From a virus (lineage: Duplodnaviria > Heunggongvirae > Uroviricota > Caudoviricetes), in the IMG/VR virus record IMGVR_UViG_3300014970_000061: a stretch of DNA of 11,110 nt. The stretch is one strand, 5' to 3'. Positions 643 through 11,110 of this stretch are shown here, piece by piece (within the stretch, counting starts at the first letter, position 1; every line of letters starts with the position of its first letter). Both the position numbers and the translations under genes were made by a program. Below the pieces are notes generated by a model that did not search any database, had not been told where the DNA came from, and worked only from the letters and a program-made list of their open reading frames with translations.

Positions 643-1656
643 TTACTCTACTGTGGACACTGTGTGGACACTCTCGGCTTCAGTACCACCTCTTAGCGGA
701 TTAAGAGAAATGGCGTCCTGAAGGTACTCTGGCGCAAAATGAGCGTAAACCATAGTTTGCTCAATCCGCGTGTGACCTAGTATCCGTTGTAGTGTGATAA
801 TACTTCCTCCATTAATCATGAAATGAGTGGCAAAGCTGTGCCTTAGTGCATGTGTGGCTTGCCCCGTTGGCAAATCCGGTTTTATTGCTTTCATTGTTCG
901 TCTGAAGCGAGGGTAATCAGCATCAGGGAATAAAAAACCTCGTTTGTTATCCGCGATCATTTTGGCAACAGCCTCTGAGATCGGGACGGTGCGTGGTTTG
1001 TTTGTTTTCGTTTTAACAAACGTGACGCGGTTATGGATGATATTTTCTGCTTTCAAACGAGCTGCTTCTCCCCAACGTGCTCCTGTACTCAGGCAAAGAA
1101 TCGCAATCTTTTTATTGTCGCCGTCAAGTGCTGCAAGCAGTAAGGCAATTTCTTCCTGTGTGAGATAGCCTGTTTCTGGTTTTTCCTCCTTAAGCCTCTT
1201 TGTCCCTCTGATAGGGTGCTCACCAAAGAATAACTCCGCTTCAATCAGGGCTGTAAACATGCCGCTAATACATGTTAAATCACGATTGATACTCGAAGGT
1301 TTAATACCCTGACTTCTTCGGGTGGCGCAGTACTGGCTGATAAGGGATTTCGTGATTTGAAATGCGCATGGGTCATTCGTTATTTTTGTGAAGATTTCAA
1401 TTTTTCCAAGATTAGATTTCCCATGCTCTTCGTGTTTACCCTTTAAATCCCACCAGATCTGTGTCAGTTCCGACAGACGTCGTTTGTCTGTTGGTTTTGA
1501 TAGCCATTCTTTATTGTGGTGGTTGTACAACGTGTATTTTTCGAAAGCGACAGCTTCGCTTTTCTTATCAAACTTCCTACGGATGCGTTTTCCGTTACGT
1601 CCAGTAGGGCGGATGTCCACTTCATATCGACCATCATCGAGTTTTTTGATTGCCAT
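643..1656 (-). CDS. int: Tyrosine recombinase, P2-type integrase (337 aa)
   Basis: ORF 643..1656 with ATG at 1656-1654 and GGAGGG 7 nt upstream. C-terminal catalytic region has HALRHSFATHF, LGH and MVYAH (tyrosine nucleophile region), typical of phage integrases. Position next to the att core. Confidence 0.95.
   Translation of the reverse strand: MAIKKLDDGRYEVDIRPTGRNGKRIRRKFDKKSEAVAFEKYTLYNHHNKEWLSKPTDKRRLSELTQIWWDLKGKHEEHGKSNLGKIEIFTKITNDPCAFQITKSLISQYCATRRSQGIKPSSINRDLTCISGMFTALIEAELFFGEHPIRGTKRLKEEKPETGYLTQEEIALLLAALDGDNKKIAILCLSTGARWGEAARLKAENIIHNRVTFVKTKTNKPRTVPISEAVAKMIADNKRGFLFPDADYPRFRRTMKAIKPDLPTGQATHALRHSFATHFMINGGSIITLQRILGHTRIEQTMVYAHFAPEYLQDAISLNPLRGGTEAESVHTVSTVE
652..671. promoter_or_regulatory. 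Direct repeat TGTGGACAC x2 at 11-bp spacing (candidate integrase arm-type binding sites)
   Basis: tgtggacac at 652-660 and 663-671, one helical turn apart, inside the 3' end of int on the int-proximal arm. A one-mismatch copy tgtggtca lies at 494-501 on the other side of the core. Confidence 0.4.
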
Positions 1657-1771
1657 CAGAAAACCCTCCGAGTGGTACTTTTTTTTGCTACTACTAATCG
1701 CTTTTTTCGTGGTGGCTGAAATTTAGCCACCAATAGTAGGCACTTGTGATGAATATATTCACGATAAATTG

Positions 1772-2071
1772 TTAACCAGTCTTTTGACCGGAGTGGGGCG
1801 ACGTTGTTTCGTTTTGCCCAAAGTGTGCGAGAGCGGGCGCAATTTGCCCGGCTTCTGGAGCTACCTGATCAGTCATGAACCACAAAGTATATTTAGTAAA
1901 TCTGGGATGTTGTAAGACCTTCATTATGGCTTCAACTCCAGCGTTTTTTGACCGGCTCTCATAGCTCGAAAGTGAGCTGTAGGCTACACCAGTTAATTCA
2001 CTGAATTCTTTACGGTTTAACCTTTCAGATTCACGGATTAGCTTCAACTTCTCCGAAACGTCTATTGACAT
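1772..2071 (-). CDS. C: Immunity repressor C (99 aa)
   Basis: Internal ATG at 2071-2069 gives exactly 99 aa (MSIDVSEKLKLIRESERLNRKEFSELTGVAYSS... contains a helix-turn-helix-like segment). GGAG 5 nt upstream. Divergent from cox and upstream of int as in P2. The ORF-track start at 2143 is rejected. Confidence 0.85.
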   Translation of the reverse strand: MSIDVSEKLKLIRESERLNRKEFSELTGVAYSSLSSYESRSKNAGVEAIMKVLQHPRFTKYTLWFMTDQVAPEAGQIAPALAHFGQNETTSPHSGQKTG

Positions 2072-2192
2072 AATTACTCCGATTGCGTAATTTCTTGCTG
2101 ATAGTGTGAAATATTGTGCTTCTGGAGTTATCCTTTTAGGCAATAATTAGCCATTAGGAGCCATTAGAAGCACTAAGGGAGAATCGTAGCAG
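2072..2192. promoter_or_regulatory. Lysis-lysogeny switch region between C and cox (expected face-to-face Pe/Pc promoters and operators)
   Basis: 121-bp divergent intergenic region. TTGACA at 2065-2070 followed 17 bp later by TAATTT (2088-2093), a possible rightward early promoter. Tandem 10-bp direct repeat tagccattag/gagccattag at 2148-2167. Exact promoter and operator positions are not resolved. Confidence 0.45.
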
Positions 2193-2468
2193 ATGAATAG
2201 ACAGCTTGTAAGCGTGACTGATGCCGTGCCTTATCAGGAGTTTGCAAAACTCATTGGTAAAACTCCAAGAGCTGTAAGGGGCATGATTGAGAAAGGGAAA
2301 TTACCAGTTATTGAGATTACTGACCCTCAGTCAGTATCGGGGCGTGCTGGTGAATATTGGGTATACCTTCCGGCATGGAATAACGGACTAAAACTGGCTT
2401 ATGAAAGCCGTCCTAAAGAGATTCGTGACGGCTGGTTGATGTGGTTAGGTCTCGGTGAACCACGTTAA
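2193..2468 (+). CDS. cox: Cox: excisionase / repressor of the lysogenic promoter (91 aa)
   Basis: ATG at 2193 with AAGGGAGA upstream. 91 aa, first gene of the rightward early operon, directly opposite C, as in P2. Confidence 0.85.
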   Translation: MNRQLVSVTDAVPYQEFAKLIGKTPRAVRGMIEKGKLPVIEITDPQSVSGRAGEYWVYLPAWNNGLKLAYESRPKEIRDGWLMWLGLGEPR

Positions 2469-2478
2469 GGAGAACCGT

Positions 2479-2649
2479 ATGAATGAGCCTCGTTGTATTG
2501 CTCAGTTATTGCGTAACGAAAGCCCCAGGGCGATTGACTTCACCATCACCCACGGTAAGGGGCGTAAGGGAATCATTATCCGCACCAAAAAACAGAGTCC
2601 GTTAAAAAAGGCTCTGACCTTTCTGAAAAGCCGGAGGGTCTGGAAATGA
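2479..2649 (+). CDS. Small early-operon protein (P2 orf78-like position), 56 aa
   Basis: ATG at 2479 with AAGGAG 6 nt upstream. The ORF-track start at 2455 is a GTG. Stop overlaps the B start (ATGA at 2646-2649). Confidence 0.55.
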   Translation: MNEPRCIAQLLRNESPRAIDFTITHGKGRKGIIIRTKKQSPLKKALTFLKSRRVWK

Positions 2650-3146
2650 CAGTGATGACGCTCAATCTCGTTGAAAAACAGCCAGCAGCTATGCGCCGGA
2701 TAATTGGTAAGCATCTGGCCGTCCCTCGCTGGCAGGAGACATGCGATTATTATAATCAGATGATGGAACGCGAACGGCTAACGGTTTGCTTTCATGCGCA
2801 GTTAAAACAGCGTCACGCAACGATGCGTTTTGAAGAAATGAACGACGTCGAACGTGAACGGCTGGTTTGTGCAATTGATGAATTGCGTGGGGCATTCTCA
2901 AAACGCCGTCAGGTTGGTGCAAGTGAGTATGCATATATTAGCTTTTTAACTGTCAGTCAGCGCCGTACTTTATTTATGCACGCACGACTGACAGAAAAAG
3001 AATTTAACCAGCCATACTGGCGAATTAATGAAGAATCATGTTACTGGCGTGATGCTTTATTCCGTGCATTACGTGAATTATTCAGCCTGTTTGAGTATGC
3101 ACCGACAATTCTGACGTCGGTAAAACCAGAGCAATATCTGCATTAA
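2646..3146 (+). CDS. B: Replication protein B (helicase-loader-like), 166 aa
   Basis: ATG at 2646 with GGAGGG 7 nt upstream. 166 aa, matching the P2 B length and position between cox and A. Confidence 0.8.
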   Translation: MTVMTLNLVEKQPAAMRRIIGKHLAVPRWQETCDYYNQMMERERLTVCFHAQLKQRHATMRFEEMNDVERERLVCAIDELRGAFSKRRQVGASEYAYISFLTVSQRRTLFMHARLTEKEFNQPYWRINEESCYWRDALFRALRELFSLFEYAPTILTSVKPEQYLH

Positions 3147-3209
3147 ATAATTAACCAGAGTTTTTAACGCACTTAATCGTGCGGGGCTTCTTTTTGCCTG
3201 GAGAAAGTC

Positions 3210-3434
3210 ATGCATACAGTTTCTGAAAACAAGTGCGGTAAATACGCATTACTGCTGCAACAGGCCAGAGCCGAAGCACAGGCCGACGCAGCGACACGCT
3301 TTTCTTCTCATCTTGACGCCATGATTCGCCATATCACAAAGGCGGAGTTATCCCGCGTGGAGATAGTCGAGCTGCTCAGTCAGGAGTCGGAAAAATTTCA
3401 CAATATCGGATTGTCTCGCGGGGAGGTGCTTTGA
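3210..3434 (+). CDS. Small early-operon protein (P2 orf80-like), 74 aa
   Basis: ATG at 3210 with GGAGA upstream. Stop overlaps the next start (TGATG). Confidence 0.6.
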
Positions 3435-3733
3435 TGTCCTGTTCTCATTCAGTTGTATTACTGAATAACGCCTTAAAAATCGCCGTTATGAAAAATGGCG
3501 ATTTGTCTCTTATTCAACTTGGTCTTGATAAAGAAAAACGCGACATAACTGAATCTGTTATCGCGATTTATCAGAATGAATTAAACCTCCTGTCTGATGT
3601 GGTCAATTTACTTGTTAAACGCGCTGTATTCCACAAGCAAATTTCCTCAGTGGATGAACTGACAAAATTAACGACAGAACTTGCCAGTTATTGCGCTGAT
3701 GTATCCAGGAAACTTAACGATAAAAGGAGCTGA
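3434..3733 (+). CDS. Small early-operon protein (P2 orf81-like), 99 aa from the ATG
   Basis: ATG at 3434 overlapping the upstream stop, with GGGAGGTG 6 nt upstream. The ORF-track start at 3431 is TTG. Confidence 0.6.
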   Translation: MSCSHSVVLLNNALKIAVMKNGDLSLIQLGLDKEKRDITESVIAIYQNELNLLSDVVNLLVKRAVFHKQISSVDELTKLTTELASYCADVSRKLNDKRS

Positions 3734-3960: not shown

Positions 3961-4232
3961 GTATTCGTATTGAAATTGGCGAACGTTATGTCGTTACCAG
4001 TGACAGCTTTCAGTTTATTCTCCACGAGAAAAAGAGAGCGGAAAGCGGTAAAAACGCCGGTCAGGAATGGCTGGCGGTGGTTGGTTATTACCCGAAATTA
4101 AGCCAGCTCGTTTCCGGCCTGATGCATCACGATATTCTGACCGGAAGCGCAAAGTCTTTTGCTGATTTAAACGCGCAGGTTGAGCAACTCAGCAAGCGTT
4201 GTTCAGAGGCTTTTGGCTCATATGGCCGTTAA
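3957..4232 (+). CDS. Small early-operon protein (P2 orf83-like), 91 aa
   Basis: ATG at 3957, translationally coupled to the upstream gene. 3' end overlaps the A start by 11 nt. Confidence 0.6.
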   Translation: MSIRIEIGERYVVTSDSFQFILHEKKRAESGKNAGQEWLAVVGYYPKLSQLVSGLMHHDILTGSAKSFADLNAQVEQLSKRCSEAFGSYGR

Positions 4233-6507
4233 AGCCTCCGGGCGTTTTGTCCCTCCGTCAGCATTTGCCGCAGGCACCGGTAAGACGTTTACCGGTGCTT
4301 ATGCGTGGAACGCGCCACGCGAGGCTGTCGGGCGCGAAAGACCCCTTACACGTGACGAGATGCGTCAGGTGCAAGGTGTTTTATCCACGATTAACCGCCT
4401 GCCTTACTTTTTGCGCTCGCTGTTTACTTCACGCTATGACTACATCCGGCGCAATAAAAGCCTGGTGCACGGGTTTTATTTCCTCACATCCACTTTTCAG
4501 CGTCGTTTATGGCCGCGCATTGAGCGTGTGAATCAGCGCCATGAAATGAACACCGACGCGTCGTTGCTGTTTCTGGCAGAGCGCGACCAGTATGCGCGCC
4601 TGCCGGGGATGAATGACAAGGAGCTGAAAAAGTTTGCCGCCCGAATCTCATCGCAGCTTTTCATGATGTATGAGGAACTCTGCGATGCCTGGGTGGATGC
4701 GCATGGCGAAAAAGAATCGCTGTTTACGGATGAGGCGCAGGCTCACCTGTATGGTCATGTTGCTGGCGCTGCACGTGCTTTCAATATTTCCCCGCTTTAC
4801 TGGAGAAAATACCGTAAAGGACAGATGACCACGAGGCAGGCATATTCTGCCATTGCCCGTCTGTTTAACGATGAGTGGTGGACTCATCAGCTTAAAGGCC
4901 AGCGTATGCGCTGGCATGAAGCGTTACTGATAGCTGTCGGGGAGGTTAATAAAGACCGCTCACCTTATGCCAGTAAACACGCCATTCGTGATGTGCGTGC
5001 ACGCCGCCAGGCAAATCTGGAATTTCTTAAATCGTGTGACCTTGAAAACAGGGAAACCGGCGAGCGCATCGACCTTATCAGTAAGGTGATGGGCAGTATT
5101 TCTAATCCTGAAATTCGCCGGATGGAGCTGATGAACACCATTGCCGGTATTGAGCGTTACGCTGCCGCAGAGGGTGATGTGGGGATGTTTATCACGCTGA
5201 CCGCGCCGTCAAAGTATCACCCGACACGTCAGGTCGGAAAAGGCGAAAGTAAAACCGTCCAGCTAAATCACGGCTGGAACGATGAGGCATTTAATCCAAA
5301 GGATGCGCAGCGTTATCTCTGCCGTATCTGGAGCCTGATGCGCACGGCATTCAAGGATAATGATTTACAGGTCTACGGTTTGCGTGTCGTCGAGCCACAC
5401 CACGACGGAACGCCGCACTGGCATATGATGCTTTTTTGTAATCCACGCCAGCGTAACCAGATTATCGAAATCATGCGTCGCTATGCGCTCAAAGAGGATG
5501 GTGACGAAAGAGGAGCCGCGCGAAACCGTTTTCAGGCAAAGCACCTTAACCGGGGCGGTGCTGCGGGATATATCGCGAAATACATTTCAAAAAATATCGA
5601 CGGCTATGCACTGGATGGTCAGCTCGATAACGATACCGGTAAGCCGCTTAAAGATACTGCCGCGGCTGTTACCGCATGGGCGTCAACGTGGCGCATCCCG
5701 CAATTTAAAACGGTTGGACTGCCGACAATGGGGGCTTACCGTGAACTACGCAAATTGCCTCGCGGCGTCAGTATTGCTGATGAGTTTGACGAACGCGTCG
5801 AGGCTGCTCGCGCTGCCGCAGACAGTGGTGATTTTGCGTTGTATATCAGCGCGCAGGGTGGGGCAAATGTCCCGCGCGATTGTCAGACTGTCAGGGTTGC
5901 CCGTAGCCCGTCGGATGACGTTAACGAGTACGAGGAAGAAGTCGAGAGAGTGGTCGGCATTTACGCGCCGCATCTCGGCGCGCGTCATATTCATATCACC
6001 AGAACGACGGACTGGCGCATTGTGCCGAAAGTTCCGGTCGTTGAGCCTTTGACTTTAAAAAGCGGCATCGCCGCGCCTCGGAGTCCTGTCAATAACTGTG
6101 GAAAGCTCACCGGCAGTGATACTTCGTTACCGGCTCCCACACCTTATGAACATGCCGCAGCCGTGCTTAATCTGGTTGATGACGGTGTTATCGAATGGAA
6201 TGAGCCAGAGGTCGTGAGGGCGCTCAGAGGTGCATTAAAACACGAACTGAGAACACCAAATCGTCAGCAGAGAAACGGAAGCCCGTTAAAACCACATGAA
6301 ATAGCGCCATCGGCCAGACTGACCCGGTCGGAACGAACGCAAATTACCCGTATCCGCGTTGACCTTGCTCAGAACGGTATCAGGCCGCAGCGATGGGAGC
6401 TTGAGGCGCTGGCGCGTGGCGCGACCGTAAATTATGACGGGAAAAAATTCACGTATCCGGTCGCTGATGAGTGGCCGGGATTCTCAACAGTAATGGAGTG
6501 GACATAA
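4222..6507 (+). CDS. A: Replication initiator A, HUH-superfamily rolling-circle endonuclease (761 aa)
   Basis: Internal ATG at 4222 gives 761 aa, matching P2 A. HUH metal-binding motif in PHWHMMLF. Paired catalytic tyrosines in YIAKYISK, as in phiX174 gpA (YVAKYVNK). In P2 the origin lies within A, but I could not pinpoint it here. Confidence 0.9.
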   Translation: MAVKASGRFVPPSAFAAGTGKTFTGAYAWNAPREAVGRERPLTRDEMRQVQGVLSTINRLPYFLRSLFTSRYDYIRRNKSLVHGFYFLTSTFQRRLWPRIERVNQRHEMNTDASLLFLAERDQYARLPGMNDKELKKFAARISSQLFMMYEELCDAWVDAHGEKESLFTDEAQAHLYGHVAGAARAFNISPLYWRKYRKGQMTTRQAYSAIARLFNDEWWTHQLKGQRMRWHEALLIAVGEVNKDRSPYASKHAIRDVRARRQANLEFLKSCDLENRETGERIDLISKVMGSISNPEIRRMELMNTIAGIERYAAAEGDVGMFITLTAPSKYHPTRQVGKGESKTVQLNHGWNDEAFNPKDAQRYLCRIWSLMRTAFKDNDLQVYGLRVVEPHHDGTPHWHMMLFCNPRQRNQIIEIMRRYALKEDGDERGAARNRFQAKHLNRGGAAGYIAKYISKNIDGYALDGQLDNDTGKPLKDTAAAVTAWASTWRIPQFKTVGLPTMGAYRELRKLPRGVSIADEFDERVEAARAAADSGDFALYISAQGGANVPRDCQTVRVARSPSDDVNEYEEEVERVVGIYAPHLGARHIHITRTTDWRIVPKVPVVEPLTLKSGIAAPRSPVNNCGKLTGSDTSLPAPTPYEHAAAVLNLVDDGVIEWNEPEVVRALRGALKHELRTPNRQQRNGSPLKPHEIAPSARLTRSERTQITRIRVDLAQNGIRPQRWELEALARGATVNYDGKKFTYPVADEWPGFSTVMEWT

Positions 6508-6959
6508 TGGCAAAAATTCACGAGGTAAAGCTGCACGCAAAATATTTCGACCTTGTGCTGGAAGGAAAGAAACGTGCAGAGTTCCGGAAAAATGACCGTA
6601 ATTATGAGCGCGGGGACACGTTGATTTTGTATGAATGGGTGCAGGGTGTGTATACGGGGCGAAATGTTGAAGCCCGGATAACAGATGTTACTGACCTGTC
6701 AGACTGGCTGGAAGATTATGTCTTGCTAAGTATTGAGCTGCTTAATACAGGCGCATATGAGATTGTGAACTGGAAAGAACTTAGTGAGCGTGGCCTGGTA
6801 TTCAGAATTAATCATGAAATTATGCATCAGCTCGGCCTTGCTGTTATGTATGAACCAGAGACGGGGATGTCTGGCGGGGCAATGGTTGCCACGGATGGAG
6901 CATGGAACTATTCAGATGAACAGATGGAGCGTGCACAGCAAAACGGGTGGCTTGGATAA
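6507..6959 (+). CDS. DUF3850/ASCH-like (PUA-fold) protein (P2 orf91-like position), 150 aa
   Basis: ATG at 6507 overlapping the A stop (TAATG). N-terminal KIHEVKLHAKYFDLVLEGKKRAEFRKNDRNYERGDTLILYEW resembles the DUF3850/ASCH motif (RKNDR). Domain call is from memory. Confidence 0.65.
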   Translation: MAKIHEVKLHAKYFDLVLEGKKRAEFRKNDRNYERGDTLILYEWVQGVYTGRNVEARITDVTDLSDWLEDYVLLSIELLNTGAYEIVNWKELSERGLVFRINHEIMHQLGLAVMYEPETGMSGGAMVATDGAWNYSDEQMERAQQNGWLG

Positions 6960-7165
6960 TGCACAGAATACCAGGCGAGATACCGCACCATAAAACTAAA
7001 AATATCAAGCTGATGGCTATTGTTCAGCGTTTACAGCGGATTATGGTCAACGAAAATCTGACGCCCGATGAGCTGGTCGGGTGTGCCGAAATAGTCCGGG
7101 ATAATTACGGGCGGTTTAACCATATCGGTCAGTCCAGAGTTGCGCCACCACAACGCAGACGATAG
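6959..7165 (+). CDS. Small hypothetical protein, 68 aa, coupled to the upstream gene
   Basis: ATG at 6959 overlapping the upstream stop (TAATG). Basic C-terminus (PPQRRR). No recognisable domain. Last ORF before the AT-rich cargo. Confidence 0.4.
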   Translation: MHRIPGEIPHHKTKNIKLMAIVQRLQRIMVNENLTPDELVGCAEIVRDNYGRFNHIGQSRVAPPQRRR

Positions 7166-7407: not shown

Positions 7408-8346
7408 ATGCCAACTGTAGTTTCACTTTTTTCTGGATGTGGTGGTTCTGATGCGGGAGTTTTGAACGCAGGTTTCAATGTGCTTATGGCAAATGATATT
7501 TTGCCTTACGCAAGGGACGTTTACTTAGAAAACCATCCTGAAACTGACTACATTTTGGGCGATATCTCAGGGCTCCAGTCGTTCCCTTCTGCTGAGTTGC
7601 TCATCGGATGCTATCCTTGCCAAGGATTTAGTCAAGGTGGGGCAAGGAAGGCAGATAGAAAGATTAATACACTATATTTAGAGTTTGCCCGTGCTTTGAG
7701 TAAAATTAAGCCAAAAGCATTCATTGTAGAGAATGTCTCTGGTATGGTAAGGCGTAACTTTGAGCATTTATTAAAGGATCAATTCAAAGTTTTCGAAGAA
7801 GCAGGTTATACAGTAAGCTCGCAAATTCTGAATGCGTCCCATTATGGGGTATCCCAAGATAGGAAGCGAATCTTTATCGTAGGAATACGAAAGGACTACG
7901 GTATTACATACAAATTTCCAAAACCAACACATGGTGATGGTTTGACACCATATTCCACAATTCGTGATGCTATTGGGCATATGCCTGTTTGGCCTGTTGG
8001 CGAGTTTTATGACGCCGATTTTCATTGGTATTATCTATCGCGAAACCGTAGGCAAGATTGGGATCAGATATCTAAAACAATTGTTGCAAATCCTAGACAT
8101 ATGCCTCTACATCCAATAAGTCCAACATTAGAAAAATTGGGACCTGATAAGTGGCAATTTACTTCGGATGCACCAGCTCGTAGGTTTAGCTATCGAGAGG
8201 CTGCTATTTTACAAGGTTTTGGGGATTTAATTTTCCCAGAAACTGAACGGGCTTCTATTAATATGAAATATACTGTGGTAGGTAATGCAGTACCGCCTCC
8301 ATTGTTTGAGGCGGTTGCTAGAAACCTTCCAGATTTATGGGATTAA
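7408..8346 (+). CDS. DNA (cytosine-5)-methyltransferase, 312 aa
   Basis: Canonical C5-MTase motifs in order: motif I LFSGCGG (AdoMet binding), motif IV GCYPCQGFSQGG (catalytic Cys in PCQ), motif VI ENV (FIVENVSGM), motif VIII QDRKR, C-terminal VVGNAVPPPLFEAV. Small size implies a short target-recognition domain. Confidence 0.92.
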   Translation: MPTVVSLFSGCGGSDAGVLNAGFNVLMANDILPYARDVYLENHPETDYILGDISGLQSFPSAELLIGCYPCQGFSQGGARKADRKINTLYLEFARALSKIKPKAFIVENVSGMVRRNFEHLLKDQFKVFEEAGYTVSSQILNASHYGVSQDRKRIFIVGIRKDYGITYKFPKPTHGDGLTPYSTIRDAIGHMPVWPVGEFYDADFHWYYLSRNRRQDWDQISKTIVANPRHMPLHPISPTLEKLGPDKWQFTSDAPARRFSYREAAILQGFGDLIFPETERASINMKYTVVGNAVPPPLFEAVARNLPDLWD

Positions 8347-9368
8347 GCAGCGATCGCGCTGGAAGGATCAAGGATGATATCTAGATAGCTAATATTTTGA
8401 CTGTGATCAATATTATCAGATGCTCTGGTTAAATTGATTAATCTTAGGCGATCAACAAAAATAGCATCGCCTAACTTATTTTTATGCGCCCACTCACCAT
8501 CTATCCATCGTAGATCTTGAGGTAAGAAATAATAAGTTGCCCATCGGTGAGCTACGGGGAATTTACTGTAGAGCATCGCAGGTGAGGCCTCAAGCTGCTT
8601 CGCTTCCCACTCTTCTTGAGAACAGCCACACTGAACAAAAGAAATAGGGATGGCATCTCGTTGATCTCCCATTGGATGCCAGGCAATTATGTCAAGGCCT
8701 CCGTCACCACTATTTCCTCGACTGAAATCTCGTTCTTTGAAGTTCGCTGTGCAACGGATATCGGAAGCAATACTCTTAAATTTATTATATAGAGTTCCAG
8801 TGTAAGGGGCCGCTTGACCACCAGAAGCCCAGCATGCTTTTATTATGCTACCGCTAGGCATTAGGCTTTCAAAAATAGGTAAACTAATTAGTTCAAAACT
8901 GCGCGTTATCTCTCTTCTGCTCATTATGTTGACATATTTTATGTTAGCACAGATTAGTAAAGCTAAATATAGTCTTTCTAAATGTTCCAGTGGCTTTTCT
9001 GATATATCACGTAACTCTACAGTATCGTTGTCTTCTGATAAAGTAAAAGGGTAACTATCCCCAAATAAATCAATGCGTTGTCGTATGAAGCCTATCGCAT
9101 AGCTCCACTTTCTGTCAGTATATGCTCGACTAACACTTCGTTTTGTTCTCTTGCGTACAGGCGTATCATTTTCATCATCAACATCATAAACGCCCTCTTC
9201 TTCTGCTTCATCTGTTTCAGCTAGTACTGCTTCGGGTTGAGCTTGCAGTGTGCTATATAGGTCTCCTCGACTGAATGACCTGTCGATATTAGTTAAGGCC
9301 AATATCTCAATATAATCAGCCCATAAATAAGGCTCATTAGAAGGCATTGAATCAAGATTTGTAATCAT
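8343..9368 (-). CDS. Uncharacterized protein with a possible Mrr-like PD-(D/E)xK nuclease signature, about 341 aa (start uncertain)
   Basis: Long minus-strand ORF whose stop overlaps the MTase stop (TTAA at 8343-8346). GDGGLDIIAW followed about 20 aa later by FVQCGCSQEEWEAK resembles the GDGGID ... (V/I)QxK core of Mrr-type nucleases, but with Gly where the Lys is expected. Acidic then basic linker (ETDEAEEEGVYDVDDENDTP / VRKRTKRSVSR). In-frame starts at 9452, 9380 and 9368; 9368 chosen because GGAGG lies 12 nt upstream and it sits 4 nt after the upstream stop. Confidence 0.7.
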   Translation of the reverse strand: MITNLDSMPSNEPYLWADYIEILALTNIDRSFSRGDLYSTLQAQPEAVLAETDEAEEEGVYDVDDENDTPVRKRTKRSVSRAYTDRKWSYAIGFIRQRIDLFGDSYPFTLSEDNDTVELRDISEKPLEHLERLYLALLICANIKYVNIMSRREITRSFELISLPIFESLMPSGSIIKACWASGGQAAPYTGTLYNKFKSIASDIRCTANFKERDFSRGNSGDGGLDIIAWHPMGDQRDAIPISFVQCGCSQEEWEAKQLEASPAMLYSKFPVAHRWATYYFLPQDLRWIDGEWAHKNKLGDAIFVDRLRLINLTRASDNIDHSQNISYLDIILDPSSAIAA

Positions 9369-9372
9369 AATC

Positions 9373-10446
9373 TCAATCATCCTCCCTTTTGCTTCTGATC
9401 TGATTTCTAATATTTTTTGACATCTCAAAAATTTCAGATGCAGCCTCTTCATGCTCTAATGTTAATTCTTTAGCTTTAAGTAGCATATCCCAAACTACTC
9501 TTAATTTAACACTAGCTGCGTTTAGTGCTTTATCTAATGCTTCTCTTTCTCCGCTGGTATATAGATATGCTTCATCCAAGTTTGAACTTTTCATGAGAAT
9601 TTCAATTGCTTCGGGTTTCTCAACCACTGCTGCAATATCTTTTATTCTTCGAGACTCACCGATGATGGTTCTACCTTGTTGGTCAGGCACAAAAAACCAA
9701 GAGAATAAACGCTTAAGGTTTTCTTCATTTAAATTTGGGTCTAAAAAATCCTTTTTATCCTGTAGACCTAACCAGTTTGTGATTTTTGAATATCCCAAAG
9801 CTGTGGTTATATATGAAAATTCCACGTCAGAAGCCTTCATGGGTAAATTAAAAAACTCATGGTCATGCGCGACTTCATATAAGTTCAGTGCAGTGAGAAG
9901 TGTTGCAACATAATGTGGTTTACTCCCAATCTCACGAGCCAGATTTTTTAATACTATCTCTTTAGGCTCATGTGAATAAAAAGTATCACATAACTCTTTA
10001 AGGTATTTGGCTTTAGATAATGAGTCCCATTCTTTGACCCCAGTTATATGACGATAACCGATATATCTCAGTACATCCTCTCGGTTTTCATAAATGATGC
10101 AGGGAAGCTTCTTAGGTTTATTGGTAGTATCATCAATGATTTCTTGCACACCTTTAAGTTTTCTTTTTGGAGGAAGCAGATCTCCATTGAGCAACTTTAC
10201 AGCAGCTAAGCGTCTGTTTCCCTCAACCACGATGTAGTTTCCATTGCTTTTTACTGCCAATAAAGGTTCTCCAGGAAAGTAACCTTGCTGACCGATTGAT
10301 AGCATTAGATCGTGGACACTTTCGTCATCTAACATTTCCTCAATGACTGTTGCAGCGTTACTGGCATCATTGAGACGAAAGAAACGTGGGTTTTTAGGGT
10401 CAAAATCAAGCTTATTTGTCTCAATTTCTACGATTTTGTTATCCAT
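9373..10446 (-). CDS. ParB/Srx-superfamily (ParB N-terminal domain) protein, 357 aa from the ATG at 10446
   Basis: N-terminus MDNKIVEIETNKLDFDPKNPRFF ... LMLSIGQQGYFPGEPLLAVKSNGNYIVVEGNRRLAAVKLL parallels the ParB N-terminal domain (I..L..P.NPR box and GxRRxxA arginine patch). GAGG 5 nt upstream of the ATG at 10446. Longer ORF-track start at 10578 lacks an RBS. C-terminal 250 aa has no motif I recognise. Confidence 0.8.
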   Translation of the reverse strand: MDNKIVEIETNKLDFDPKNPRFFRLNDASNAATVIEEMLDDESVHDLMLSIGQQGYFPGEPLLAVKSNGNYIVVEGNRRLAAVKLLNGDLLPPKRKLKGVQEIIDDTTNKPKKLPCIIYENREDVLRYIGYRHITGVKEWDSLSKAKYLKELCDTFYSHEPKEIVLKNLAREIGSKPHYVATLLTALNLYEVAHDHEFFNLPMKASDVEFSYITTALGYSKITNWLGLQDKKDFLDPNLNEENLKRLFSWFFVPDQQGRTIIGESRRIKDIAAVVEKPEAIEILMKSSNLDEAYLYTSGEREALDKALNAASVKLRVVWDMLLKAKELTLEHEEAASEIFEMSKNIRNQIRSKREDD

Positions 10447-10673: not shown

Positions 10674-10692
10674 GGCGAGGCGGGGAAAGCAC
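10674..10692. other. Phage cohesive-end site (cos), ggcgaggcggggaaagcac
   Basis: 19-nt sequence matches my recollection of the P2 cohesive end. GC-rich, and located between the last right-arm gene and the first late gene, as expected in a prophage. Confidence 0.65.
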
Positions 10693-10861: not shown

Positions 10862-11110
10862 TCAGCCGTTGTCAGTGTCCAGTGAGTAGTTTTTAAATCG
10901 GATGACCTCCTGACCGAGCCAGCCGTTTATCTCGCGGATCCTGTCCTGTAACGGGATAAGCTCATTGCGGACAAAGACCTTTGCTACTTTCTCAATATCG
11001 CCCAGCGACCCGACGTTCTCCGGTTTGCCGCCCATCTGCGTATTACCGTGAAGGAGATCGGTGAGTAACATCGATGGAGATCGGTTCGTGTCACTTTCAC
11101 AGAACCGTTT
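10862..11110 (-). CDS. 3' end of a late gene, probably capsid portal protein Q (partial; 5' end beyond the window)
   Basis: Minus-strand ORF ending at 10862, about 170 bp from cos, presumably open to the window edge. In P2 the first gene after cos is Q on the opposite strand. Identity is by synteny only. Confidence 0.5.
   Translation of the reverse strand, partial: KRFCESDTNRSPSMLLTDLLHGNTQMGGKPENVGSLGDIEKVAKVFVRNELIPLQDRIREINGWLGQEVIRFKNYSLDTDNG

What the first reader, a model, noticed from the sequence alone, without database searches (positions are those of the whole stretch)
8343..9368. Nuclease-like partner with a degenerate Mrr-type motif (GDGGLD ... VQCG) and an acidic/basic linker
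GDGGLDIIAW and FVQCG resemble the two core strands of Mrr-like PD-(D/E)xK nucleases, but the expected lysine of the QxK element is a glycine. Either the lysine is supplied from elsewhere (EEWEAK follows), the alignment is wrong, or the protein is a catalytically altered relative. The N-terminal half contains a strongly acidic run followed by a basic run, which looks like a flexible linker or an autoinhibitory or DNA-mimic segment. If it is an active nuclease encoded tail-to-tail with an MTase, it is the likely effector of the cassette.
Basis: inference. Interest (0 to 1): 0.66.

Follow-up and report, generated by a model that had tools for sequence, protein, structure and literature searches.

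The report
Mrr-like nuclease with a relocated lysine
This prophage gene encodes an uncharacterised restriction-type nuclease whose catalytic lysine has moved to a neighbouring helix, and across bacteria it is always paired with a ParB-like protein and nearly always sits next to a DNA-marking enzyme, so it is probably the cutting subunit of an undescribed two-protein restriction system.

Summary
The gene at 8343-9368(-) is orf96 (gp96) of P2-like phage Wphi. It carries GDGGLD and FVQCG, with glycine where Mrr has its lysine, followed by EEWEAK. It has no Pfam, NCBIfam or PADLOC match, but the family holds at least 1,566 clusters.

- **Missing lysine:** its absence is family-wide. In 321 relatives, lysine sits either at the canonical QxK position (7) or at K257 of EEWEAK (313). 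It never sits at both, and it is absent from both in only one degenerate sequence. This points to a relocated catalytic lysine.
- **Gene context:** in 73 genomes from many phyla, a ParB/Srx-fold gene lies immediately upstream wherever the contig allows it to be seen. A cytosine-5 methyltransferase (60 loci) or dndC/dndD phosphorothioation genes (7 loci) lie beside the pair.

Best reading: this is the nuclease subunit of a two-protein restriction module. The ParB-like partner is probably nucleotide-binding, and own DNA is protected by modification. It resembles a split version of SspE, DndI or GmrSD and is related to PD-lambda-5. Nuclease activity, defence and the partner's role are untested. 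The acidic loop is a variable-length feature of the family.

The parts
8343..9368 (-). Target gene, 341 aa. It is identical to phage Wphi gp96 (orf96), RefSeq WP_000570053. The PGAP start is at 9380 and the longest ORF runs to 9452.
   Evidence: No Pfam, NCBIfam or PADLOC hit. Matches phrog_3984, function unknown.
8994..9368 (-). N-terminal domain, about residues 1-125, possibly winged-helix-like. Invariant residues are P9, D18, E21 and R98.
9111..9215 (-). Acidic-then-basic low-complexity loop, residues 52-86, inside the N-terminal domain.
   Evidence: Sequence checked. pLDDT 73-83. The equivalent segment is 10-83 aa long across the family (median 32) and strongly acidic where long.
8409..8951 (-). 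PD-(D/E)xK-fold nuclease domain, about residues 140-320.
8892..8894 (-). E159 on the first core helix. It aligns with the FE of Mrr.
   Evidence: (99% conserved).
8691..8708 (-). GDGGLD, residues 221-226, just before the second core strand. D226 is the canonical aspartate.
   Evidence: (D226 100%, D222 98%).
8622..8633 (-). QCGC, residues 246-249, at the end of the third core strand. Q246 takes the (D/E/Q) position. G248 takes the position of the canonical lysine.
8598..8609 (-). WEAK, residues 254-257, a short helix after the third strand. K257 is the proposed relocated catalytic lysine.
   Evidence: 97% conserved. Mutually exclusive with lysine at position 248.
8442..8453 (-). DRLR, residues 306-309, invariant. 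It follows the last core strand and aligns with VDGERL of Mrr.
9373..10446 (-). ParB/Srx-fold partner gene, 357 aa, Wphi gp98, WP_000368931. It has an N-terminal ParB_N domain with invariant EGNRR (10210-10224) and a helical C-terminal domain.
7408..8346 (+). Cytosine-5 DNA methyltransferase, Wphi Mth, WP_001143634. It converges on the target gene with a 4-nt overlap.
   Evidence: Pfam DNA_methylase 209.7 bits over the full length. Full-length similarity to M.HaeIII, E = 1.6e-48.

Best explanation
**What it is.** The protein is a divergent Mrr-type PD-(D/E)xK nuclease. It has an N-terminal domain, possibly a DNA-binding winged helix, that carries a variable acidic loop.

**Active site.** The site keeps the helix glutamate (E159), the aspartates of GDGGLD (D222, D226) and the strand glutamine (Q246). 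The canonical lysine two residues after Q246 has been replaced by a small residue. Its role is taken by K257 on the short helix that follows.

**System.** The gene is expressed from one operon with the ParB/Srx-fold protein just upstream, which probably binds a nucleotide. The two proteins form the restriction half of a restriction-modification-like defence cassette in the P2/Wphi hotspot between gene A and the cos site. The convergent cytosine-5 methyltransferase marks the host and prophage DNA. DNA that lacks the mark is cut.

**Other lineages.** In some lineages the same pair is attached to the dnd phosphorothioation genes instead of a methyltransferase. It therefore behaves as a portable restriction module that works with a DNA mark.

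**Shown here:** the fold, the motif conservation, the lysine exchange and the gene linkage.

**Inferred:** nuclease activity, complex formation with the ParB-like protein, nucleotide dependence, and protection of own DNA by the mark.
For: **Fold**
- The AlphaFold2 model has pLDDT 94 and pTM 0.92.

**Motifs**
- hhalign of the C-terminal domain against an Mrr alignment gives 104-118 collinear columns, P = 4.7e-4. It pairs FE, GDGGID, Q and VD..RL.
- The catalytic-type residues are 97-100% conserved in 144 cluster representatives.

**Lysine exchange**
- Of 321 relatives, 313 have K257 and no K248.
- Seven have QCKC, that is K248, and no K257.
- None has both. One sequence has neither and has also lost D222, Q246 and E159.
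- Fisher's exact test gives P = 8e-6 on the 144 representatives.
- The K248 sequences are only 34-38% identical to each other, and one of them is closer to K257-type sequences.
- A K248-type locus keeps the ParB_N gene, the target and a C5 methyltransferase.

**Gene linkage**
- The ParB-like gene lies immediately upstream on the same strand in 69 of 73 loci. The other 4 are cut by contig ends.
- A C5 methyltransferase is present in 60 loci.
- dndC or dndD is present in 7 loci.
- Vsr mismatch-repair genes lie beside several loci.

**Partner**
- GNRR aligns with the GERR of ParB.
- The N-terminal 150 residues match PADLOC PD-Lambda-5_A at E = 3e-24.

**Genomic setting**
- The cassette sits in the known P2 defence hotspot and is listed there as an uncharacterised arrangement.
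- In one E. coli strain, IS5 splits this gene while the methyltransferase and ParB-like genes stay intact.
Against: - No sequence-based method assigns the family: Pfam, NCBIfam and PADLOC at E <= 1 and PDB sequences all find nothing.
- Foldseek against PDB finds nothing significant.
- The hhalign probability is only 32%, and the default run aligned only 21 columns.
- I could not read model coordinates, so the position of K257 relative to D226 and Q246 has not been measured.
- The K248 sequences may stem from few evolutionary events, which weakens the statistic.
- Three of about 70 evaluable loci show no adjacent modification gene (L036, L045, L064).
- No experiment on this cassette was found.
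- Mrr-type nucleases are typically modification-dependent, which fits poorly with a co-encoded methyltransferase unless the logic is reversed.
Confidence: 0.6

Rival explanations
1. The pair is a modification-sensing effector like SspE, or a Type IV-like enzyme. The m5C or phosphorothioate mark on host DNA would then activate or license the ParB-like/nuclease pair, rather than simply blocking cleavage. One route is stimulation of the partner's NTPase, so that the nuclease is released onto nearby unmarked DNA.
For: - SspE and DndI, both ParB-like DUF262 plus nuclease, have NTPase activity that is stimulated by phosphorothioate (PMC11662687).
- The dnd-linked members sit among DndI/GmrSD-like, DptH and phosphorothioate-dependent restriction genes.
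Against: - Nothing in the sequence separates activation from inhibition.
- The common convergent or overlapping layout with a C5 methyltransferase, plus Vsr, is the classical restriction-modification layout.
- The IS5 knock-out of this gene alone fits a gene whose product is dangerous, but it does not discriminate between the two models.
Confidence: 0.17
2. The protein is a catalytically inactive PD-(D/E)xK-fold DNA-binding or mark-reading subunit. The real effector would be the ParB-like protein, through its conserved RYIGYRH motif or a ParB-type nuclease or NTPase activity. Alternatively there would be no cleavage at all.
For: - The canonical lysine is absent in 98% of the family.
- Inactive restriction-endonuclease domains are a recognised class; Pfam NA-iREase1 appears among the hits to Mrr homologues.
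- The ParB-like protein is the better conserved of the two: 55-58% identity in Methylomonas, against 41% for the target.
- In PD-lambda-5 the ParB protein itself carries the proposed effector (HEPN) domain.
Against: - Inactive domains normally lose their acidic residues. Here E159, D222, D226 and Q246 are 98-100% conserved.
- The one relative that lost them (P0275) lost several at once.
- The strict either/or between K248 and K257 shows selection for a lysine at the site.
Confidence: 0.13
3. The pair has a role outside defence. It might regulate the methyltransferase or dnd genes, as DndB or a controller protein does, or it might act in prophage maintenance, partition or replication.
For: - DndB is a ParB-like regulator (PMC11662687; PMC4507180, listed).
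- Rousset et al. note that partition-like systems occupy the same P2 hotspot.
Against: - The dnd-linked loci L077, L080 and L081 contain a bona fide DndB in addition to the pair.
- No ParA partner is present.
- Most chromosomal loci are not on phages or plasmids.
- A conserved nuclease-type active site is unnecessary for a repressor.
Confidence: 0.05

Closest known systems
Mrr-type PD-(D/E)xK catalytic domains: E. coli Mrr (Pfam Mrr_cat PF04471), MspJI and AspBHI
   Same: - The GDGG(I/L)D motif is identical to Mrr.
- A glutamine, not an acidic residue, sits on the third strand.
- An FE lies on the first helix, and the domain ends in a VD..L strand-helix.
   Different: - The lysine of QxK is replaced by G, A, T or S, and a conserved lysine sits 9-11 residues later.
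- Conserved cysteines flank that position (QC-x-C).
- There is a 4-residue insertion relative to Mrr.
- The protein does not reach the Pfam Mrr_cat model even at E <= 1.
- Mrr acts alone on modified DNA. This protein is co-encoded with a modification enzyme and a ParB-like partner.
PD-lambda-5 (Vassallo et al. 2022, PMC9519451): a ParB/HEPN protein plus a methyltransferase, prophage-borne, with broad anti-phage activity
   Same: - The partner protein here matches the first ~158 positions of the PD-Lambda-5_A profiles (E down to 3e-24).
- Both are prophage cassettes that combine a ParB-fold protein with a DNA methyltransferase.
- Vassallo et al. read PD-lambda-5 as a compacted RM+Abi system.
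   Different: - PD-lambda-5 has two genes, with the proposed effector (HEPN) fused to ParB.
- Here there are three genes, and the proposed effector is a separate PD-(D/E)xK protein with no PADLOC hit.
ParB-like (DUF262) NTPase-nuclease fusions: SspE, DndI, GmrSD and BrxU
   Same: - A ParB/Srx-fold module with a (D/E)G-x-x-R phosphate-binding motif (EGNRR here, DGQQR there) is coupled to a nuclease.
- Both are linked to a DNA-marking system. Seven loci of this family sit beside dndC/dndD.
- In SspE and DndI the NTPase switch tells marked from unmarked DNA (PMC11662687).
   Different: - Here the two modules are separate proteins.
- The nuclease has a PD-(D/E)xK fold, not the His-Me/HNH fold of DUF1524.
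- Neither protein matches Pfam GmrSD_N or GmrSD_C.
- The usual mark is m5C, not phosphorothioate.
NTP-dependent multi-subunit restriction enzymes that pair an NTPase subunit with a PD-(D/E)xK subunit: McrBC, and LlaJI-type systems with C5 methyltransferases (from my own knowledge)
   Same: Labour is divided between a nucleotide-binding subunit and a PD-(D/E)xK cleavage subunit, and some of these systems carry cytosine methyltransferases.
   Different: The NTPase there is an AAA+ GTPase. Here it is a ParB/Srx-fold protein. No sequence similarity was found.
Type IIP enzymes with relocated active-site residues: the Cfr10I, NgoMIV and Bse634I group
   Same: - From my own knowledge, they are the textbook case of a catalytic residue (the second acidic residue) moving from the third strand to a neighbouring helix. 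This is the same kind of change proposed here for the lysine.
   Different: There the residue that moved is a glutamate and the lysine stays in place. Those enzymes work as homodimers or tetramers without a ParB-like partner.

Membership tests
PD-(D/E)xK nuclease superfamily | Core alpha-beta-beta-beta-alpha-beta fold | tested here: met
   [not shown]
PD-(D/E)xK nuclease superfamily | Conserved aspartate at the start of the second core strand | tested here: met
   D226 is 100% conserved. It lies just before strand 227-230.
PD-(D/E)xK nuclease superfamily | (D/E/Q)-x-K on the third core strand | tested here: not met
   Q246 is present, but position 248 is glycine here and A, G, T or S in 98% of relatives. 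Seven of 321 relatives do have QCK. K257 and K248 are mutually exclusive, which points to relocation of the lysine rather than its loss.
PD-(D/E)xK nuclease superfamily | Metal-dependent phosphodiester cleavage | not testable with these tools
   Needs biochemistry.
Mrr_cat (Pfam PF04471) | Score above the Pfam gathering threshold | tested here: not met
   No Pfam family at E <= 1.
Mrr_cat (Pfam PF04471) | Profile-profile similarity to Mrr homologues | tested here: inconclusive
   The default hhalign run gave 21 columns at 25% probability. The C-terminal domain alone gave 104-118 collinear columns, P = 4.7e-4, 32% probability.
Type II-like restriction-modification system | Intact cognate methyltransferase next to the nuclease gene | tested here: met
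   The C5 methyltransferase scores 209.7 bits over the full length. It overlaps the target gene's 3' end by 4 nt. A C5 methyltransferase is adjacent or nearby in 60 of 73 loci.
Type II-like restriction-modification system | Cleavage of unmodified sites and protection by the methyltransferase | not testable with these tools
   Needs plating and toxicity assays and in vitro digestion.
PD-lambda-5 | Two-gene system: ParB/HEPN fusion plus methyltransferase | tested here: not met
   [not shown]
GmrSD / SspE / DndI (DUF262 + DUF1524) | DUF262 ParB-like NTPase fused to a DUF1524 HNH nuclease | tested here: not met
   No GmrSD_N or GmrSD_C hit. The nuclease has a PD-(D/E)xK fold and is a separate protein. 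The partner does have the ParB/Srx fold and an EGNRR motif.
ParB/Srx superfamily (partner protein gp98) | ParB_N fold with the GxRR nucleotide-binding motif | tested here: met
   [not shown]
ParB/Srx superfamily (partner protein gp98) | CTP/NTP binding or hydrolysis | not testable with these tools
   From my own knowledge, the glutamate of GERR is needed for CTP hydrolysis in Caulobacter ParB. Here it is an invariant asparagine. Whether any activity follows is open.

The most novel reading that the evidence does not exclude
The gp98/gp96 pair would be a new class of restriction enzyme. A ParB-type nucleotide switch, acting as a clamp or slider, scans DNA for a mark and gates a separate Mrr-derived nuclease. 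Because the same pair is found with either a cytosine-5 methyltransferase or the dnd phosphorothioation machinery, it would be a general 'mark reader plus cutter' that can be attached to chemically unrelated DNA modifications.
Probability: 0.25. Interest if true: 0.8.

Novelty: new variant of a known kind. Interest (0 to 1): 0.6.

Why it matters
- **An unnamed family in a well-studied phage.** The cassette sits in the best-known defence hotspot of P2-like phages. It has been in GenBank as Wphi orf96, orf98 and mth for two decades and occurs in at least 104 complete E. coli genomes. The nuclease family still has no name in Pfam, NCBIfam, PHROGs or PADLOC, so defence-annotation tools miss it or could mislabel it as PD-lambda-5.
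- **A direct test of the active site.** The either/or lysine pattern is a natural experiment. It shows how a PD-(D/E)xK active site can be rebuilt, and it suggests a swap test: G248K plus K257A.
- **Modular pairing with two DNA marks.** The pair is linked to methylation in most lineages and to phosphorothioation in others. This suggests restriction modules that can be exchanged between DNA-marking systems.
- **A possible new role for the ParB fold.** ParB-fold nucleotide switches may have a restriction role beyond the fused DUF262 enzymes.

Tried and rejected
**Searches that found nothing useful**
- Pfam, NCBIfam and PADLOC scans of the target at E <= 1 gave no hit.
- PHROGs gave only families of unknown function.
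- phmmer and a family profile against PDB sequences gave no meaningful hit.
- The default hhalign of the full-length family against Mrr aligned only the last 21 columns. Trimming to the C-terminal domain was needed.
- The exhaustive representative search returned only full-length family members among its best 150. It showed the size of the family but gave no bridge to a named family.

**Ideas tested and dropped**
- Identity with PD-lambda-5: rejected. Only the ParB N-domain is shared.
- The three-gene P2-hotspot system of Rousset et al. that protects against P1: rejected. That system has 'no clear predicted domain', whereas this one has a methyltransferase.

**Literature**
- Searches by accession number, by PDC-M38, by Wphi/gp96 and by domain combination found no characterisation.

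**Not possible**
- I could not measure distances in the predicted model, because the tools do not expose coordinates.
Full report
**1. Where the window comes from**

The window is the early region and accessory hotspot of a P2-like prophage of E. coli.
- It carries the integrase (643-1656, -), C and Cox-type switch genes, and the replication gene A (4180-6507, Pfam Phage_GPA, E = 1e-123).
- The same cassette occurs at 100% identity in many complete E. coli genomes. It covers at least 80% of a 3.4-kb query in 104 genomes.
- In strain SMS-3-5 it lies between gene A and the portal gene Q. This is the P2 defence hotspot described by Rousset et al. (PMC9122126).
- The three genes are identical to orf98 (gp98), orf96 (gp96) and mth of phage Wphi (AY135739).
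- Rousset's Table S5A lists the arrangement with the same protein accessions. It is annotated only as 'DNA_methylase + hypothetical + hypothetical'.
- I found no paper that characterises it.

**2. The observation**

- GDGGLD is at residues 221-226, FVQCG at 244-248 and EEWEAK at 252-257. The acidic-then-basic run is at residues 52-86.
- The start at 9368 fits the N-termini of the homologues. It lies 4 nt after the ParB-like gene's stop. PGAP prefers 9380.
- The 3' end overlaps the convergent methyltransferase gene by 4 nt.

**3. The family**

The protein has no Pfam, NCBIfam or PADLOC match at E <= 1. It matches only a PHROG of unknown function.
- The word-indexed search found 292 relatives, all 'hypothetical'.
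- The exhaustive profile search found 1,566 cluster representatives at E <= 0.001, of which 457 are at E <= 1e-30.
- In 144 full-length representatives the following are 94-100% conserved: D18, E21, R98, Y134, E159, D222, G224, D226, D235, Q246, C247, C249, W254, K257, W293, D306, R307 and R309.
- Position 248, where Mrr has its lysine, is A in 98, G in 27, T in 11, S in 5 and K in 3.

**4. Fold**

With a 105-sequence alignment, AlphaFold2 gives pLDDT 94 and pTM 0.92.
- Foldseek gave nothing significant, although Card1, SgrAI, PspGI and Bse634I appear in its weak tail.
- The secondary structure places the motifs as follows:
  - E159 on a long helix (148-169);
  - D226 just before a strand (227-230);
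  - Q246 at the end of the next long strand (242-247);
  - K257 on the short helix that follows (254-257);
  - DRLR just after a late strand (302-305).

**5. Relation to Mrr**

E. coli Mrr reads ...GTGDGGIDGVISLDKLGLEKVYVQAKRW...MVLVDGERLVHLM.
- The default profile-profile comparison of the family with an Mrr alignment matched only the last strand-helix, AIFVDRLRLINL against MVLVDGERLVHLM (probability 25%).
- Restricting the comparison to the C-terminal domain gave a collinear alignment of 104-118 columns (P = 4.7e-4, probability 32%).
- That alignment pairs FE with FE, GDGGID with GDGGID, Q246 with Mrr's Q, W254 with the W of KRW, and VDRLRL with VDGERL. It needs a 4-residue insertion after Q-C.
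- By Pfam's criterion the protein is not a member of Mrr_cat.

**6. The missing lysine**

- Among the 144 representatives, the three sequences with QCKC (lysine at the canonical position) are three of the only four that lack K257. They have G, T and L there.
- The fourth sequence without K257 has also lost D222, Q246 and E159, and looks inactivated.
- After adding the 73 genomic loci and the 105 closer homologues, the count over 321 sequences is:
  - 313 with K257 only;
  - 7 with K248 only;
  - 0 with both;
  - 1 with neither.
- Fisher's exact test on the representatives gives P = 8e-6. Relatedness inflates this figure.
- However, the K248 sequences are only 34-38% identical to one another, and one of them (P0273) is closer to K257-type sequences. 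This argues against a single recent event.
- The K248 type is found mainly in Bacteroidota-type loci (L063, L066, L067, L078). It keeps the same neighbours: a ParB_N gene upstream and a C5 methyltransferase.
- I conclude that one lysine is required at this site and can be supplied from either position. In the window's protein it is K257 of EEWEAK.
- Relocation of catalytic residues to a neighbouring helix is known in this superfamily. The Cfr10I/NgoMIV group is an example (my own knowledge), and those enzymes are among the structural matches.
- I could not measure the K257-to-D226 distance, because model coordinates are not exposed.

**7. The acidic run**

In the model the run is a loop between two helices of the N-terminal domain (pLDDT 73-83).
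- In the closer relatives it is mostly absent: 89 of the 105 sequences have 10-19 residues there.
- Over the wider family the segment ranges from 10 to 83 residues, with a median of 32.
- Where long, it is strongly acidic, for example 27 D/E in 83 residues.
- It is therefore a recurrent but dispensable feature. A DNA-mimicking or self-inhibiting role is possible but untested.

**8. Neighbours**

A scan of one genome per species found 73 loci, in Proteobacteria, Campylobacterota, Bacteroidota, Chloroflexota, Acidobacteriota, Armatimonadota and Verrucomicrobiota.
- The homologue of the ParB-like gene lies immediately upstream on the same strand in 69 loci, often overlapping the target. The other four loci are cut by contig ends.
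- A C5 methyltransferase is present in 60 loci:
  - convergent and adjacent in 41;
  - same strand downstream in 10;
  - upstream in 4 (one on the opposite strand, possibly a classification error of the script);
  - about 3 kb away in 5.
- Vsr genes, which repair the T:G mismatches caused by m5C deamination, accompany several loci.
- The loci without a C5 methyltransferase are mostly the most distant ones, and seven of them sit beside dndC or dndD (TIGR03183, TIGR03185).
  - Three of these also have a bona fide DndB.
  - L077 also has DptH and a phosphorothioate-dependent endonuclease.
  - L073 and L079 also have a GmrSD/DndI-type protein.
- Only three evaluable loci show neither modification system. 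L064 lies next to SIR2-HerA. L045 and L036 are the other two.
- The pair is therefore the constant unit, and it is almost always attached to a DNA-marking system.

**9. The partner**

gp98 has a ParB/Srx N-terminal domain.
- Its invariant EGNRR aligns with GERR of ParB and Spo0J.
- The pattern resembles the DGQQR/DGQHR motif of DUF262 and DndB (my own knowledge; the DGQQR motif is described in PMC11662687).
- The C-terminal 200 residues are helical with no clear match, and no HEPN fold was detected.
- The N-terminal ~150 residues match PADLOC PD-Lambda-5_A (E = 3e-24) and PDC-M38A.
- PD-lambda-5 is a 'ParB/HEPN + methyltransferase' prophage system with broad activity. It had to be cloned in an mrr-deleted host (PMC9519451).

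**10. Mechanism**

The most economical reading is a restriction-modification-like module.
- Mth marks DNA. Its full-length similarity to M.HaeIII, including the target-recognition region, makes GGCC a lead for the site.
- gp98 and gp96 are made from one operon and act together.
- gp96 supplies the Mg2+-dependent cleavage site: E159, D222/D226, Q246 and K257. It may also supply DNA binding through its N-terminal domain.
- gp98 supplies a nucleotide-dependent step. By analogy with SspE and DndI (PMC11662687), this step decides whether the nuclease stays on the DNA or is switched on.
- Shown here: the fold, the motif conservation, the lysine exchange and the gene linkage.
- Inferred: catalysis, complex formation, the role of the nucleotide, and whether the mark blocks or licenses cleavage.
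- A small supporting anecdote: in strain JXZ9A32M an IS5 splits only this gene and leaves the methyltransferase and gp98 intact. Restriction genes often decay in this way.

**11. Rivals**

- An SspE-like or Type IV-like logic, in which the mark activates the system, cannot be excluded from sequence.
- An inactive 'reader' domain is unlikely, given the conservation of the acidic residues and the lysine exchange.
- A purely regulatory or partition role is unlikely, because bona fide DndB co-occurs with the pair, there is no ParA, and most loci are chromosomal.

**12. Novelty and score**

- The gene is catalogued but uncharacterised.
- The family is large and unnamed.
- The architecture is a ParB-fold protein plus a separate Mrr-derived nuclease with a relocated lysine, attached to either m5C or phosphorothioate modification. 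It is a new variant of known themes: restriction-modification, PD-lambda-5, and the DUF262 nucleases.
- I score interest at 0.6. There is a clear and testable active-site story and a widespread candidate defence system, but no functional data.

Noticed in passing
window 10674-10692: GGCGAGGCGGGGAAAGCAC matches, from my memory, the 19-nt cohesive end (cos) of phage P2. It lies between the ParB-like gene and the portal gene fragment (10862-11071, -). The cassette is therefore next to cos, as Rousset et al. describe for this hotspot.
   Followed up: partly
L084 (E. coli JXZ9A32M, NZ_CP193883.1) 1344-3572: An IS5 element splits the target gene into two annotated fragments, while the methyltransferase and the ParB-like gene stay intact. 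This is one case among 104 genomes that carry the cassette.
   Followed up: partly
window 10039-10068 (ParB-like protein residues 127-136): RYIGYRHITG is nearly invariant in the partner family (R127, Y128, G130, R132, H133, I134, T135, G136). It fits an R-x5-H pattern like the HEPN motif. It sits in the only low-confidence loop of the model (residues 131-138), inside the region shared with PD-Lambda-5_A. Its role is unknown.
   Followed up: partly
window 8622-8633 (residues 246-249): The two cysteines that flank the lysine position (Q-C-x-C) are 94-97% conserved, in both the K248 and the K257 types. On a strand they should point away from the active site. No other conserved cysteine or histidine partners were seen, so the conservation is unexplained.
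   Followed up: no
L071, L073, L074, L077, L079, L080, L081: The most divergent members of the pair lack a C5 methyltransferase. They lie beside dndC/dndD, sometimes with DndB, DptH, a phosphorothioate-dependent endonuclease or GmrSD/DndI-like genes. A canonical Mrr_cat protein is also adjacent in L079 and L081.
   Followed up: partly
L002 7373-10507 and L027-L030, L037: In Comamonadaceae-type loci a conserved ~1,044-aa protein sits between the pair and the C5 methyltransferase plus Vsr. It has only a weak N6_Mtase/UPF0020 signal at residues 345-434. It may be a further component or a second system.
   Followed up: partly
window 7408-8346: The methyltransferase aligns over its full length (residues 4-307) with M.HaeIII, E = 1.6e-48, far better than with M.HhaI. 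A phage record annotates the same gene as 'BspRI methylase'. GGCC specificity is a lead only. Its best PADLOC hits are the Druantia DruM models (E = 1e-110).
   Followed up: partly
window 6471-7165: A DUF3850/ASCH + DUF7415 protein (6471-6959, overlapping the end of gene A) and a small 72-aa ORF (6947-7165) lie between gene A and the cassette. They travel with the cassette in the arrangements listed by Rousset et al. (Table S5A). Their function is unknown.
   Followed up: no
window 9368 vs 9380: RefSeq/PGAP starts the target gene at 9380 (345 aa, overlapping the ParB-like gene by 8 nt). GenBank's Wphi record uses the full 369-aa ORF. The N-termini of the homologues support 9368 (341 aa).
   Followed up: yes
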